A stretch of 64,000 nucleotides of DNA from Octopus sinensis (Eukaryota). The stretch is from assembly GCF_006345805.1 (NCBI RefSeq), contig NC_043002.1:98642001-98706000 (forward strand), given 5' to 3'. Shown in pieces: positions 32,353-39,800 of the stretch. Made by a program: the position numbers. Position 1 is the stretch's first letter; the number at the start of each line of letters is the position of its first letter.

Positions 32353-34470
32353 TAATAATAATAATAATAATAATAGAAGTGGTGGTTTTGGAGGTGTCAG
32401 TAGTTATTCATTGCTTTTGTTGTTGGTGTTATTGTTGGTGTGGCATATATTTGTAAGTATCAACATGGTGGGTGTTGGGGGTTGAATATGAATCATAAAA
32501 AACAATATGGAAATCATGAATTATCTGTAACTGGTTAGCATCATGTACTGCAAGGCTTATAATTGTGTAGTATGGAAGGAAGCAATGGATATGTGTGTAT
32601 GTTCATTAGTTTGTTTAAGTCATCATGGCTAAGGTCATGTTGGACTAGCTCTCTCAGTGTATGTGTGTGTATGTATATTTGTCTACAGACACTATTATGT
32701 ATGAGAGATACATTTTTAAGGTTCAAGAATTAATCTCAGACTCTGACCTTCATTCACTCTCACCTATTCACAAGCAAAGATCTTGAAAGATCTTCTTCAA
32801 ACGACAAGAGAAATAACACATTTCACGAGGAATCTCAACCGAATATGAGGGCCACTGGTTTCATTAACAGGTTCAGTTAAGTAAAAGATTCATAATGCTG
32901 GAAATTGGTGTTGGTGGTGTTGGTGTTGGTGTCGATGTTGGTTGTGAAGGGGAAGATGCCAGTTATTATTTCTAGTTAAGGGTTCGTGCTTGCTGAGAAC
33001 TGACCAATGGAGTGGCTCTATTTTATATACTTCTGTTCAGTTTGCAGGCAACATTATCACTCTGAACATCATATGTTTGTTTGTTTGTTTGTTTATATCT
33101 ATGTCTGCATGTGTGTGTGTATGTGTGTATATATGCATATATGTATAATATAATGTAATTAGTGTATTGGTCCACCTAAATGTAATAATAGCTATTAATG
33201 TACAAAAATGTGAAAAAAAATTTAACATATCTATATAAATATTTATATATACATGTATAGATATATTCTCCACACACACACACACAAATACATATGAACA
33301 TATACATGCTTTCTTGCTGCATATATTATAAAAGTCATGAACAAATTATATATATATATGTATACATACACATGCATATATAAACACAAATATTCATCCT
33401 ATTGGATTCATTCATACGATGCATATTCATATATTGACACGGACAAAAATCTCGATGCGTCAATGTTAGAAATATACCTGAATTATAGAATATTGATAAT
33501 GCATAGATATTTGAACTGTTAAAAACACATATGTACATTTACTCATACACACATATATTTATATTTATGTGCTTTTACACAAACACACACATATACTTAG
33601 AGATATTCTGATATACATATGTACACCTTATATATATACATATATATATCTATATATGAATATATACATATATATATCCATAAGTATATTTGTATGTATG
33701 TATATATATCCATATGTATATTTGTATGTATGTATATATATCCATATGTATATTTGTATGTATGTATATATATCCATAAGTATATTTGTATGTATGTATA
33801 TAAATCCATAAGTATATTTGTATGTATATATATATATAGATATATATGTATATATATTTATATATCTATATATATACATATATATGTATATATATATATA
33901 CATATATATGTATATATATATGCATACAAATATGCTTATGGATATATATACATACATATAAATATACTTATGGATATATATACATACATACAAATATACT
34001 TATGGATATATATATATGTATATATTCATATATAGATATATATATGTATATATACATTAATATATATATATGTATATATGTATGTGTATACATATGTATG
34101 TATATGTATATATACATTAATATATATGTATATATGTATGTGTATACATATGTATGTATATGTATATATTCATATATAGATATATATATGTATATATACA
34201 TTCATATATATATGTATATATGTATGTGTATATATATGTATGTATATGTATCTATTCATATATAGATATATATATGTATATATACATTCATATATTTATA
34301 TGTATATATGTATGTGTATATATGTATGTATATGTATGTATATGTATATATTTTTATTTATATATACATATATATACACACATATATATTTATATGTATG
34401 CACACTCACATGTGTGTATATATACATGTATATATAAATATATATATATGTGTATATAAATATATATATA

Positions 34471-34514
<44 letters not shown>

Positions 34515-35036
34515 CACACATACATATACACAAATATTTATATAATAAGGATGTACCACTTACAAATGACTCTATAAATTAACTATGATATTATATAGAT
34601 CATCCCTATCGACTTTCTAGTTTTGTTCTATGCTCCTTGCTGTAAACTAAAAACAGCAACAAAATCATGTCATGTACAATTAAAATATATAACAACAGCA
34701 ACAACAACAAAAACAACTGTAAGAATGAGAATGACAAAAATGAACAAATAAATGAATGCAAGAAAGAACAATGAAAAAAATTATCCAAGACAGACTTGGT
34801 TTGGATTGAACCTCCTTGACTTGCAAAAGTATTTTGGAAAATATCCACTCACTTTTGCATCATACCACAAAATTCTACAAGAATTTACATGGAATTTACA
34901 TGGCTTATAGACTTTCCTATTGGATTTACTAAAAAAAAAAAAGAAAAAAAGAAATATTCTACAGACAATAATTGCAAACAGAAATGGAAATTATCGATCA
35001 ATACTCTTCTGTATTTATTATTATTATCATCATCAA

Positions 35037-35084
<48 letters not shown>

Positions 35085-36330: not shown

Positions 36331-36365
<35 letters not shown>

Positions 36366-36783
36366 ACATAATATATATGTATATACAGGTACATATATAT
36401 ATATATATATACACACACATATTTTTATTAATATTTAGCAGAAACAACAGAGTGACTCAGAGGCCAAGGGTTTCGTGTGTTGGCACGCAAGAAAATCTTA
36501 GACCTTCAGTCACTATGTTGCTTCGGTTAAATATAAATAAAAATATACACTTACTCATATTTTGAGTTATATTTTTCCTGTTTGTACCAACATACCTACA
36601 TATATATTTATATATATGTACTTGTGTGTGTATGCACATACATATTTATGTATATATATATATATATAATATATATATATATATACACGTGTGTGTGTGT
36701 GTGTGTTTGTATATATGTACACTCAAACTATGTATCTAACAGCAAAAGAAGTAGGCCCCAATAACATGTAGAAAGTGAGTATT

Positions 36784-36842
<59 letters not shown>

Positions 36843-39800
36843 TCTGGTTGAACATGGGACCGTATCATTTCATAGATGTTTCTGGATTGACACTGATATG
36901 AATTGTAATGAAAAGTACTCAATACTCTTAAACTAAGTAGAAGAATTTCTGTTCAAGTTCATATCAGCATGAGTGGCTACTCAGAGTCTCTTGTTTGCAT
37001 TTCTTTGACAATGAATGGGAGCAAGAACTTTGGGTAGTGACTTATGTAGATTCAATTTTGAAAGGGCATCCTTCCCATAAATATGTGAGTACATAGATAT
37101 ACACACAAACATATGCACAGTCTTTGATTAACATCATTTATAATACTGTTCAAAGAAAGCGTTATTAAGGATGATATGGAAAAGCTGATATACTTACATC
37201 CTAAAATAAATATGCATATATACAAAATATGTATACATACTATATGTGTATGTGTATGTATACTAGAATAAAATGATATGGAATGAAAGCACTGTACATC
37301 ACACTGCTGTGTATATTTAAGCAAAGCAGATTAATATTCTACCACTGGATTTATTACTTATTTTTCCATGATGCATGAAGAAAGGTATTATTAACTACAG
37401 ATCACCAAAAAAGCAATCACTGTATTTCTGAAAACAAGTGTATCATTGGTTTTAGAATTTCTGTTCAATGTTTAAATTGTTTACCAAAATGACATCAGTG
37501 AAAGCTACCCCCCCCCCAACCACCACGCAGACATACATTTTCTCTGTGTGTCTCACACACACTCTCACATTGAGCTTCTAGATAGTTTTATCTATTTCAT
37601 TGTACTTGCTAAGTATTTTTTAATTTGAGGGTTTTGTAAAGACACTGGCTCAAATTCTCTGTGGTGGGATTGAACCCAGAGCTAAGTGGTTGTGGAGTAA
37701 ACTTCTTAACCAAGTCATGCATGCATCTGCAACTTAATTTGTTCATCATGCAGTTATAGTCTATAGAAATAGTTTGGACAAATATTTTTTTTTAAAAATA
37801 GAATTAATCAAGGACTTGTAAATGAGTATGTGCTAGTATATACGTAATTCTATGTGTGTGCCCTAAGGATTGTTTAAAAAGATGGTTAAAGAATTGGTCT
37901 ACCAGATCTAGGATGAAGAATTTGTGTTAACTGTTAATGTTTCATTGTGTTACAGAGCAAACACACTTTTAAATCTTTTAGCATTTTTTGATAAGTTAAT
38001 GAAAGGAGGGTGAAGAGCCATGGTCATTATCTATGCAGACCCTTCCAGTTTTATTAGATTGATATGGCTGATGTCCAGTCTCAGTGTCTGCAGCTCAGTC
38101 CCCCTCCCCAAAAACAGAAACAAACAAAAGTGTTGGGAGGAAAGCAGTGATAGGAAAGGGCATGTTTCAAGTACTTGTAAGAGCATGAAGTCCTCTAAAG
38201 ACACTGCTCAACTTGCTTAACTCTAGTGAAGAAATAACAGATTTTTTGGTTGGTGGGGGAATATTAACTAATACACTGATGTCCTATCTTTCATGTTTGC
38301 CTGACATATTCCTTTTTGCTTTGAAAATATTTAATTGGATGAGAAAATTCATTATTGTAAAATATCAATGTATCTGCTTCACAGTTGAGTTGCTAGACAG
38401 TGAAATAAGATACTAGTAATGCACACATAGGTTCACAGATGTGTGGCTAGGCAAAGAGGTTCATAACAATGTGCACATGGCTTCACAGTTGAGTGGCTAG
38501 ACATAGGGACAGGAGTCTAGTGGTGTGTACAGGTTCACAGCAGAGTAACTAGGCATAGCAACAGGACTCTAGCAGTGTATATATAACTTCACAGTTGAGC
38601 TGGTTAGACATAGTAATGGGATTCTAGTAGTGTGTACATAGTTTCACAGCTGACTGATTAGGCATAGGGAGATATAGACAGTGTATCCACCCGTTCACAA
38701 TTGAATAACTGGCGAAGAGGGTACTAGTAGTGTATAATAATTTCACAGTTGAGTAGCTATACATAACAACAAGATCTAACTGTATATGCATATATAAGTG
38801 TGGCTTCACAGTTGAATGGCTAGACATAGAAAGAGAAAACATTTTCAAAACTACTTATTCTCACATGTCATATCAAAATATACAATTTTTTAACAATTAA
38901 CTTCCATGCTTCAATAGATGAATTGAAGCAAAACATATAAGGCAACATCTGGAATCAGAAGAAACTTGTGTTAGTCAGTGATGGCTATAATTACTCTGTA
39001 GGGAAATTCATTGAAGAGTTTGTTAATTTGAATTACTTTGGGAAATAAAAGTTCTACATAGCATCATTTGTAGTTTTTTAAGGAAGTGAATTAAAATGTG
39101 ATGTAGATTCCTCTTTTCTCACAGTAAGTGAACTTACTGAAATCTTCATTCACTCTTCTGTATTAATATAAGCATGGTCATAACTGAACAGTTGAAACCA
39201 GTAAAAAATAATGAATGAACAGAAACAACATAGAGTATTAAGTCCTCTTTAGTTTTGTAGATTACAAGGTAACCCTTCTAGTGCTGGTGCCTTTATAAAA
39301 TTATAAATTTGTTTTTGGCCATTAAAATCTAATTGGCTTTCTTCTATTTGCTGCCACCCTGTTTCTGTTTGGTTAATTATTTTAAGGATTAGTTCATGGC
39401 ACATAAAATATTATTGGAGAAAGAGCATTAGTTGCTTAGAGGTGTGACATGTGAATAAGCCATCTCACTGGTTATCTTGGTTGTTTTTTTATTTTAATTC
39501 CTTGGTGAAATAATGGTGAAAACTATGCTCTCAAAAGCAAAGCATATTTAGAACTACCTTGATTTCATGTTTTCAGAATCAGAAATCTTGAATTATTTGA
39601 TTTTCTTTGAGATTGTGATTAAATTGTGGTTAGATGGAAATAACAGAGAAAATCAGAAAATGATGGAATGAGAACATTTGAAGATGAAATATATAAAAAA
39701 AAAAAAGACTCCAAAGAATTTCAAGTACAGTGAGAGAAAGAAAGGGAAGAAAATATGAAGGACTGAGAATGCAAAAAAAGGCAAAAGCCAAACAAAGCAA

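What the first reader, a model, noticed from the sequence alone, without database searches (positions are those of the whole stretch)
32975..37187. Candidate lineage-specific miRNA cluster in a SINE-free island of the Sema5 intron
Seen: within about 4.2 kb there are 6-7 unrelated imperfect hairpins of 65-130 nt (32975, 35121, 35278, 36419, 36893, 36968, weakly 37118). They sit in unique sequence separated by microsatellites. Their irregular pairs are mostly G·U on the + strand, the Sema5 sense strand. The interval 32057-41167 has no intact SINE, while the rest of the window has one every 1-3 kb. Established: coleoid cephalopods carry many lineage-specific miRNA families, and animal miRNAs often lie in intronic clusters. 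Inference: a polycistronic pri-miRNA co-transcribed with, or nested in, an axon-guidance gene. I do not recognise these as conserved bilaterian or molluscan families, but they may already be catalogued.
Basis: partly seen in the sequence, partly recalled or inferred. Interest (0 to 1): 0.85.

Follow-up and report, generated by a model that had tools for sequence, protein, structure and literature searches.

The report
One miRNA-like hairpin, not a cluster
In a long intron of an octopus semaphorin-5A gene, one of the seven proposed hairpins looks like a genuine microRNA precursor, one is a plain DNA inverted repeat and five are no better than chance, so this is not a microRNA cluster.

Summary
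The described features are present. All seven stretches fold as hairpins, microsatellites separate them, and 32061-41166 carries no interspersed repeat. The + strand is the sense strand of semaphorin-5A, 98% identical to the Octopus sinensis protein.

The cluster reading fails. Only 2 of 7 hairpins beat all 200 dinucleotide shuffles.

- **h6, 36968-37046 (+):** -39.8 kcal/mol, z -8.45, 32 pairs over a 35-position stem, 10-nt loop. It has 7 G·U pairs and no A·C mismatch. The minus strand reaches only -15.6. It shows the largest strand asymmetry of 4200 windows and has no DNA-level self-complement. It is a textbook Microprocessor substrate on the host-gene strand.
- **h4, 36420-36545:** a 52-pair inverted repeat that folds equally on both strands, so it says nothing about RNA.
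- **The other five:** z between -1.2 and -2.2.

Rfam gives no match. Small-RNA reads, MirGeneDB sequences and other cephalopod genomes could not be reached, so expression, conservation and catalogue status are untested.

Best reading: a single canonical intronic miRNA candidate (about 0.45), possibly young or lineage-specific.

The parts
36968..37046 (+). h6: candidate pri/pre-miRNA hairpin. 32 pairs (25 Watson-Crick, 7 G·U), two G·G mismatches, one bulged C, 35-position stem, 10-nt loop.
   Evidence: -39.8 kcal/mol, z -8.45, 0/200 shuffles; minus strand -15.6. 0/3000 shuffles, best shuffle -28.1. G·U 7 versus A·C 0. Largest strand asymmetry of 4200 windows. The same fold is kept within a 271-nt context. 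No other copy and no reverse-complement self-match in the window.
36981..37002 (+). Predicted 5p arm of h6. Inferred only from the rulers of about 11 bp from the base and 22 bp from the loop; no reads support it.
   Evidence: 18 of 22 positions pair within the predicted duplex, and the first base is U. The ruler rule is recalled from the Microprocessor literature and was not tested here.
37015..37035 (+). Predicted 3p arm of h6, placed by a 2-nt overhang relative to the predicted 5p arm. Inference only.
   Evidence: There is no CNNC at +16..+21 and no UG at -14/-13 for these predicted cuts.
36420..36545 (.). h4: 126-nt inverted repeat with 52 pairs and an AT-rich base, folding equally well on both strands.
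   Evidence: -46.4 (+) and -47.8 (-) kcal/mol, z -7.68 and -9.61. G·U 4 versus A·C 2, with five purine-purine mismatches. It matches its own reverse complement at 87% over 38 nt. It is single-copy in the window.
32981..33057 (+). h1: weak hairpin, near chance.
   Evidence: -21.2 kcal/mol, z -2.04, 8/200 shuffles as good.
35121..35193 (+). h2: chance-level fold.
   Evidence: z -1.26, 19/200 shuffles as good.
35278..35400 (+). h3: two separate stems. A 26-nt mini-hairpin lies at 35283-35308 and a loose 81-nt fold at 35312-35392. Chance-level as a miRNA hairpin.
   Evidence: The 81-nt core has z -1.18 (24/200). The mini-hairpin has z -3.31 (1/200) but is far too short.
36893..36967 (.). h5: a 12-bp closing stem around a poorly paired interior, abutting h6.
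   Evidence: z -2.24 (+) and -3.09 (-). The centroid structure keeps only the 12-bp closing stem.
37118..37187 (+). h7: chance-level fold.
   Evidence: z -1.29, 24/200 shuffles as good.
32061..41166 (.). 9.1-kb stretch without any interspersed repeat that recurs in the window. About a quarter of it is tandem repeat.
   Evidence: No coding-looking ORF by eye in the 69 stop-to-stop ORFs of at least 50 aa (these were not scanned against Pfam).
33611..34537 (.). Compound TA/TG-type microsatellite.
   Evidence: TRF. It is the source of nearly all sub-threshold mir-297/mir-466/mir-3149-type Rfam matches.
23895..24077 (+). Last semaphorin-5A exon found in the window (aa 724-784 of the O. sinensis protein). 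Everything downstream to 64000 is intron-like.
   Evidence: tblastn of P0001 against the window at 100% identity. The other exons lie at 2042-2263, 6030-6203, 19867-20037 and 22951-23133.

Best explanation
The span is not a 6-7 member cluster. It holds one strong candidate for a canonical intronic microRNA gene, h6 (36968-37046, + strand).

**Proposed mechanism (inferred)**
1. The hairpin is transcribed as part of the long semaphorin-5A intron.
2. Its 35-position imperfect stem with single-stranded flanks is recognised by Drosha/DGCR8 (Pasha) and cut about 11 bp above the base.
3. The resulting pre-miRNA of roughly 55 nt is exported and diced.
4. One arm, predicted near 36981-37002 or 37015-37035, is loaded into Argonaute.

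**Shown**
- The structure itself.
- Its dependence on + strand G·U pairs.
- Its uniqueness within the window.
- Its host-gene strand.

**Inferred**
- Transcription, cleavage, arm positions and any target.

**The other hairpins**
- h4, 420 nt upstream, is most simply a decaying DNA inverted duplication. It has no evidence of RNA-level constraint.
- The other five hairpins are ordinary folds of AT-rich DNA.
For: **Folding strength**
- h6 folds at -39.8 kcal/mol over 79 nt, z -8.45, with 0/200 shuffles as good.
- 0/3000 shuffles reach it; the best shuffle is -28.1.
- The MFE and centroid structures are identical, and the fold is unchanged inside 271 nt of context.

**Rank within the window**
- It is the lowest-energy single hairpin among 151 qualifying window-strands of the 6392 x 2 scanned in non-tandem DNA.
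- It ranks third by z among 104 loci. The two above it are the two strands of one SINE head-to-head junction.

**Strand specificity**
- 7 G·U pairs against 0 A·C mismatches (binomial p 0.016).
- Energy difference between strands is -25.0 kcal/mol, the extreme of 4200 windows (mean -0.48, sd 5.3).
- No reverse-complement self-match by blastn-short at E up to 5, unlike h4.
- The surrounding DNA has no G+T excess: ratio 0.967 in 32975-37187 against 1.55 in h6. A regional mutational skew therefore does not explain the asymmetry.

**Geometry**
- 35 and 34 arm positions and a 10-nt loop.
- 18 of 22 positions pair in the predicted duplex.
- MFE index 1.21.

**Host gene**
- The + strand is the sense strand of semaphorin-5A.

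**Literature**
- Octopus species carry many lineage-restricted miRNA families, expressed mainly in neural tissue. The authors call the catalogue an underestimate (PMC9699675, abstract and section 6).
Against: **Missing evidence**
- No small-RNA reads, no orthologous sequence and no catalogue sequence could be consulted. The defining criteria of an miRNA are therefore untested.

**Base rate is low**

**Statistical caveats**
- A heavy-tailed Gumbel extrapolation of the 3000 shuffles gives p of about 4e-5 per window.
- Over roughly 10^4 window-strands that does not by itself exclude a chance fold. My own estimate of the expected number is up to about 0.4; a normal tail would give far less.
- The G·U test rests on 7 pairs.

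**Processing motifs absent**
- At the ruler-predicted cut sites there is no basal UG at -14/-13 and no CNNC at +16..+21.
- By my reading of the 10-nt loop printed, there is no UGU or GUG in it.

**No family match**
- No Rfam family matches h6, even at E up to 10.

**Processing is not function**
- The same paper warns that many hairpins yield low-level, non-functional products of the biogenesis pathway.
Confidence: 0.45

Rival explanations
1. h6 and h4 are both by-products of sequence history: local inverted duplications, or for h6 a rare chance fold. They make no discrete small RNAs and have no function.
For: - h4 is demonstrably a DNA-level inverted repeat. Its mismatch spectrum of 4 G·U, 2 A·C and 5 transversion-type pairs looks neutral. 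Such duplications therefore do arise in this stretch.
- A perfect palindrome from two SINEs out-scores h6.
- The Gumbel tail p of about 4e-5 per window is not vanishing over the whole window.
- The base rate of annotated miRNA genes is low.
- Canonical processing motifs are absent at the predicted sites.
Against: - h6 has no detectable DNA self-complementarity.
- All 7 of its transition-type irregular pairs fall on the side that keeps the + strand RNA paired.
- It is the most strand-asymmetric of 4200 windows.
- Its stem length and loop match the Microprocessor optimum (the optimum itself is recalled).
Confidence: 0.35
2. A two-hairpin cluster: h4 and h6, 420 nt apart, are both cut from one primary transcript.
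For: - Both hairpins beat all 200 shuffles.
- They are the two best hairpins in unique DNA of the 9.1-kb island and lie within 630 nt of each other.
Against: - h4 shows no strand preference and has a 52-pair stem, well beyond the roughly 35-bp norm.
- The two hairpins share no significant sequence similarity. Among the 36 pairs of nine hairpins tested in both orientations, only h2 with h5 passed z > 3.
- Novel octopus families are reported never to co-occur on a scaffold.
Confidence: 0.1
3. One reading: a polycistronic cluster of 6-7 unrelated lineage-specific miRNAs.
For: - Seven hairpin-like folds lie on 4.2 kb of unique sequence in a repeat-poor island.
- The + strand folds better than the - strand for 5 of 7.
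Against: - 5 of 7 hairpins have z between -1.2 and -2.2, with 4 to 24 of 200 shuffles as good.
- The span as a whole has no + strand folding advantage.
- The finer scan of 32057-41167 found no further strong hairpin (29 loci).
Confidence: 0.03
4. h6 is a structured intronic RNA element of another kind, for example a double-stranded substrate for ADAR editing or a splicing-related structure. It is not a Drosha substrate.
For: - It is a strand-specific 32-pair helix in a neural gene.
- Coleoids edit RNA heavily (PMC9699675, introduction passage).
Against: - It lies 12.9 kb from the nearest mapped exon. Editing or splicing control of coding sequence is therefore hard to picture.
- Its dimensions are those of a pri-miRNA.
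Confidence: 0.05

Closest known systems
Canonical (Drosha-dependent) intronic animal miRNA genes, such as those catalogued for Octopus in MirGeneDB (Zolotarov et al. 2022, PMC9699675)
   Same: h6 is a single imperfect hairpin of about 35 stem positions with a 10-nt loop. It has G·U wobbles and is on the sense strand of a neural host gene, deep inside an intron.
   Different: No reads, no orthologue and no catalogue match could be obtained. The basal UG and CNNC motifs are absent at the predicted positions.
Polycistronic miRNA clusters (such as the bilaterian mir-2 or vertebrate mir-17-92 type; named from memory)
   Same: Several hairpins lie on one strand within a few kb.
   Different: Only one hairpin qualifies, or two at most. 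The hairpins are unrelated in sequence and five are chance-level.
Inverted-repeat or MITE-derived hairpins and hairpin-RNA loci
   Same: h4 is a long near-perfect inverted repeat with an AT-rich base. It is detectable at the DNA level and equally stable on both strands.
   Different: h4 is single-copy in this window, and no clear target-site duplication could be called. h6 does not fit this class at all.
Mirtrons
   Same: Intronic origin.
   Different: The ends of h6 are nowhere near splice sites. The nearest mapped exon ends at 24077 and the intron continues past 64000.

Membership tests
Animal miRNA gene (MirGeneDB-type criteria, recalled) | Imperfect hairpin with at least 16 complementary positions between the two arms | tested here: met
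   For h6, 18 of 22 positions pair in the ruler-predicted duplex, with 32 pairs overall. The arm positions are predicted, not read-defined.
Animal miRNA gene (MirGeneDB-type criteria, recalled) | Terminal loop of at least 8 nt | tested here: met
   h6 has a 10-nt loop in the MFE and centroid fold.
Animal miRNA gene (MirGeneDB-type criteria, recalled) | 20-26 nt reads from both arms with 2-nt 3' offsets and homogeneous 5' ends | not testable with these tools
Animal miRNA gene (MirGeneDB-type criteria, recalled) | Presence in a second species (the rule used for novel octopus families) | not testable with these tools
   No cephalopod DNA collection was open. A translated search over h6 gave nothing, and a second gave only one unexplained weak hit.
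Animal miRNA gene (auxiliary processing motifs, recalled) | Basal UG at -14/-13, CNNC at about +16 to +18, apical UGU/GUG | tested here: not met
   At the ruler-predicted cuts, -14/-13 reads GC and +16..+21 reads TTCAAT. The 10-nt loop printed holds no TGT or GTG by my reading. These motifs are enhancers rather than requirements, and the cut sites are predictions.
Known miRNA families in Rfam 15 | Covariance-model match at or near the gathering score | tested here: not met
   There were 0 gathering-level matches in the whole window. Of the 129 matches at E up to 10 in 32000-41500, none overlaps h6. One overlaps h4 (MIR5229, 20.4 bits against a gathering score of 80, E 2.6). The remainder are almost all on microsatellite.
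Polycistronic miRNA cluster | Several neighbouring hairpins on one strand, each qualifying on its own | tested here: not met
   Two of 7 hairpins beat all shuffles and one of those is strand-neutral. No further candidates appeared in the island.
Mirtron | Hairpin ends coincide with splice donor and acceptor | tested here: not met
   h6 starts 12.9 kb downstream of the last mapped exon, and no downstream exon lies in the window.
MITE or transposon-derived inverted repeat (for h4) | Multiple dispersed copies with terminal inverted repeats and a target-site duplication | tested here: inconclusive
   There is no second copy in 64 kb. Genome-wide copy number is not testable. The AT-rich ends make any TA duplication ambiguous (sequence read).
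Class-5 semaphorin host gene | PSI domain followed by thrombospondin type-1 repeats on one strand, and identity to a named Sema5 | tested here: met
   Pfam PSI and TSP_1 both score above their cut-offs. One exon is 98% identical to semaphorin-5A of Octopus sinensis. Five exons map in order on the + strand.

The most novel reading that the evidence does not exclude
h6 and its neighbour h4 are both processed, forming a genus- or species-restricted pair of unrelated miRNAs inside the semaphorin-5A intron. Selection on the shared primary transcript keeps the surrounding 9 kb free of SINE insertions. This would be the first case of two novel octopus miRNA families sharing a locus, contrary to the published statement that none do. 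It would also tie new miRNA birth to an axon-guidance gene.
Probability: 0.08. Interest if true: 0.55.

Novelty: new member of a known kind. Interest (0 to 1): 0.3.

Why it matters
Coleoid cephalopods are the one invertebrate group with a vertebrate-scale expansion of miRNA families, and the published catalogue is called an underestimate. If h6 is real and uncatalogued, it would add one more lineage-restricted miRNA, hosted in an axon-guidance gene expressed in neurons. That is a modest addition, not a new principle.

The more useful result is negative. Hairpins picked by eye in AT-rich, microsatellite-laden octopus introns are mostly chance folds. Strand asymmetry measured against the whole window separates the one serious candidate from the rest.

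Tried and rejected
**1. Rfam.** Neither the gathering-level nor the permissive scan gave anything usable. The permissive hits are microsatellite look-alikes of mir-297, mir-466 and mir-3149.

**2. Catalogue look-up**
- Tables S1-S5 of PMC9699675 hold no precursor sequences.
[quoted passage not shown] The PDF supplement is unreadable here.
- The one held supplementary file of the MirGeneDB 3.0 paper had neither motif; the passages shown list family names.
- The Euprymna miRNA paper's seven supplementary files hold neither motif.
- A full-text search for a 12-nt T-free piece of the h6 3' arm found five unrelated papers.
- A search for MirGeneDB-style octopus gene names found no relevant paper.
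- Whether h6 or h4 is already catalogued therefore stays open.

**3. Conservation by proxy**
- The stop-to-stop translation across h6 found nothing in the word-indexed protein set.
- It found one weak, repetitive hit, P0004 (E 2.1e-5), among 1.84 billion representatives.
- The cluster look-up for P0004 could not be made. P0004 has no relative in the bacterial and archaeal genomes. It is left unexplained.

**4. Paralogy.** No significant similarity links h4 and h6. They are not tandem duplicates.

**5. Regional mutational skew.** This was rejected as the cause of the G·U bias, because the span has a (G+T)/(A+C) ratio of 0.967.

**6. Hidden exon or nested gene in the island.** None of the 69 ORFs of at least 50 aa looks coding, and no Sema5A exon maps there. 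These ORFs were not scanned against Pfam.

**7. tRNA-like SINE heads.** ARAGORN found no tRNA in the window.

**9. Spliced model.** The exons were handled one by one.

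
Full report
**Setting**

The window is AT-rich animal DNA. On the + strand it carries a PSI-domain exon and thrombospondin type-1 repeat exons. Pfam scores PSI at 31.1 bits and TSP_1 at 44.7 and 44.0 bits, all above their cut-offs; the fourth candidate exon gave no Pfam hit. 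One TSP1 exon is 98% identical to semaphorin-5A of Octopus sinensis, and a cuttlefish SEMA5 matches at 87%.

Mapping that protein onto the window exon by exon with tblastn places five exons:

| Protein residues | Window coordinates |
|---|---|
| aa 478-549 | 2042-2263 |
| aa 550-607 | 6030-6203 |
| aa 607-663 | 19867-20037 |
| aa 665-725 | 22951-23133 |
| aa 724-784 | 23895-24077 |

Nothing for aa 785 onward appears up to base 64000. No stretch looked human.

**The observation**

All seven named places fold as hairpins, though h3 is two stems rather than one. Tandem repeats lie between them and make up 41% of 32975-37187.

A self-comparison of the window shows multi-copy interspersed repeats ending at about 32060 and resuming at about 41167. 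Local tandem hits were excluded. With 40 repeat blocks of depth at least 3, the 9106-nt gap is the largest; the next is 3982 nt. Random placement reaches it in about 2% of 50000 trials. The island is real and mildly unusual, but the test is post hoc. At depth at least 2, a microsatellite-type block at 36597-36719 splits the gap and the effect vanishes (P 0.63).

**Are the hairpins more than chance?**

Against 200 dinucleotide-preserving shuffles each, two of seven stand out on the + strand:
- h6 (36968-37046): -39.8 kcal/mol, z -8.45, 0/200.
- h4 (36420-36545): -46.4 kcal/mol, z -7.68, 0/200.

The other five have z of -2.04, -1.26, -1.18, -2.24 and -1.29, with 8, 19, 24, 4 and 24 of 200 shuffles folding at least as well. 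In roughly 2.5 kb of non-tandem DNA read on two strands, such folds are expected.

I scanned the whole window in 90-nt steps on both strands (6392 windows).
- 151 window-strands were kept: single hairpin, at least 24 pairs, -24 kcal/mol or lower, and at most 25% tandem repeat. The h6 window is the lowest at -42.8.
- After merging to 104 loci and z-scoring with 60 shuffles, h6 ranks third at -8.76. It sits behind the two strands of 21311-21400.
- That locus is a perfect palindrome where two SINE copies meet head to head (-56.1 kcal/mol; repeat depth 13).
- h4 follows at -5.23 in a 90-nt frame.

A finer 80-nt scan of 32057-41167 gave 79 window-strands and 29 loci with 40 shuffles each. It found no further strong candidate: h6 -6.7, a short palindromic core at 40372-40451 at -5.06, and h4 at -4.89.

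With 3000 shuffles, none reaches h6; the best is -28.1. A deliberately heavy-tailed Gumbel extrapolation gives about 4e-5 per window. Over about 10^4 window-strands that does not by itself rule out a chance fold. This is my own estimate, and a normal tail would make it negligible.

**What distinguishes h6**

- **Pair composition.** Its 32 pairs are 25 Watson-Crick and 7 G·U. There is no A·C mismatch, which would be the wobble on the opposite strand. It also has two G·G mismatches and one bulged C. A 7:0 split has two-sided p 0.016.
- **Opposite strand.** The minus strand folds at only -15.6 kcal/mol (z -2.72).
- **Strand asymmetry.** Among 4200 windows with at most 10% tandem repeat, the + minus - energy difference has mean -0.48 and sd 5.30. 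The h6 window, at -25.0, is the extreme.
- **No DNA palindrome.** blastn-short finds no reverse-complement self-match for h6 at E up to 5. h4 matches itself at 87% over 38 nt. The h6 helix therefore exists only as + strand RNA.
- **Not a regional skew.** The (G+T)/(A+C) ratio is 0.967 over the non-tandem part of 32975-37187, against 1.55 in h6.
- **Stable in context.** The fold is the same as MFE and centroid, and inside a 271-nt context.
- **Dimensions.** It has 35 and 34 arm positions, a 10-nt loop and MFE index 1.21. From memory, these are the preferred dimensions of Microprocessor substrates.
- **Predicted arms.** Rulers from the base and from the loop both place the 5p start near 36981 (a U). 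That gives 36981-37002 for 5p and 37015-37035 for 3p, with 18 of 22 positions paired in the duplex. These positions are inference.

**Against h6**

- At the predicted cuts there is no UG at -14/-13 and no CNNC at +16..+21. By my reading of the loop printed, there is no UGU or GUG in it.
- No Rfam family matches it, even at E up to 10.
- The base rate is low. The published catalogue lists 164 miRNA genes in O. vulgaris.
- The same paper stresses that many hairpins yield non-functional low-level products.

**h4**

This is a 126-nt, 52-pair inverted repeat with an AT-rich base, flanked by microsatellites.
- It folds equally on both strands: -46.4 and -47.8 kcal/mol, z -7.68 and -9.61.
- Its irregular positions are 4 G·U, 2 A·C, five purine-purine mismatches and two small bulges. 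That spectrum fits neutral decay of a DNA inverted duplication.
- It is single-copy in the window and unrelated to h6.
- It may or may not be processed. Nothing here argues for RNA-level constraint.

**The G·U claim in general**

The + fold has more G·U than the - fold in 6 of 7 hairpins and the lower energy in 5 of 7. Only h6 is an outlier.

**Known catalogue**

I read the abstract, sections 6, 35 and 46, term passages and Tables S1-S5 of Zolotarov et al. 2022 (PMC9699675).
- It does not mention semaphorin (0 occurrences).
- Its sequence-bearing Data S1-S4 could not be opened and its PDF supplement is unreadable here.
- The held MirGeneDB 3.0 supplementary file had neither motif; the passages shown list family names.
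- I therefore cannot say whether h6 is already an entry. That gap bears directly on the novelty rating.

**Conservation**

No cephalopod DNA was reachable.
- As a proxy I searched the 51-aa stop-to-stop translation across h6, which is not a real protein. The word-indexed set gave nothing.
- The representative set gave one hit. P0004 has 160 aa, E 2.1e-5 and 38% identity, with three internal repeats each aligning to the hairpin part.
- Its origin could not be looked up and it has no prokaryotic relative.
- It may be chance, or a translated repeat array. It is unexplained.

**Verdict**

The interpretation shrinks from a 6-7 gene polycistron to one good candidate.
- I put about 0.45 on h6 being cut by Drosha and Dicer as a canonical intronic miRNA co-transcribed with semaphorin-5A.
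- I put about 0.35 on h6 and h4 being inert products of sequence history.
- I put about 0.10 on an h4 plus h6 pair.
- I put 0.03 on the original cluster.
- I put 0.05 on another kind of structured intronic RNA.
- If real and uncatalogued, h6 is a new member of a known kind.

Noticed in passing
window 62975-63075 (+): A second + strand-specific hairpin lies in unique DNA of the same intron. It folds at -35.6 kcal/mol (z -5.40, 0/200 shuffles) against -18.4 on the minus strand, with 38 pairs including 7 G·U. It is built around a local repeat of a CCTTTAGA-type motif. It is weaker and less regular than h6.
   Followed up: partly
window 21305-21405: A near-perfect palindrome (-56.1 kcal/mol, z -13.6) lies where two SINE copies (20946-21338 reverse, 21358-21766 forward) meet head to head. 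It is the strongest hairpin in the window and is clearly repeat-derived. It serves as a reminder of the false-positive class.
   Followed up: yes
window 40365-40465: A short palindromic core of about 15 perfect pairs sits in unique DNA. It folds on both strands (z -3.7 and -3.5).
   Followed up: partly
window 38376-38765: A 55-nt tandem repeat of about 3.5 copies at 72% identity. It is the only non-microsatellite repeat inside the SINE-free island.
   Followed up: no
window 33611-34537: A compound TA/TG microsatellite of about 0.9 kb produces dozens of sub-threshold Rfam matches to mir-297, mir-466, mir-3149 and mir-1277 (best 58.2 bits against a gathering score of 90). These are low-complexity artefacts, not miRNAs.
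   Followed up: yes
window 19310-19505, 28740-28935, 41167-41360, 51696-51883, 62522-62718: A second short interspersed repeat family, distinct from the roughly 420-nt SINE. Its GC-rich 5' part folds at about -38 kcal/mol, but with modest z (-2.1 to -3.6).
   Followed up: no
protein P0004 (library representative, source unknown): A 160-aa repetitive 'protein' has three units that each align to the translation of the h6 hairpin (E 2.1e-5 for the whole library). Its origin could not be looked up. It may be chance or a translated repeat array.
   Followed up: partly
window 2042-24077 (+): Five semaphorin-5A exons (aa 478-784 of the O. sinensis protein) at 69-100% identity. The first (2042-2263) is only 69% identical over 74 aa, probably because the alignment runs past the exon boundary.
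   Followed up: no
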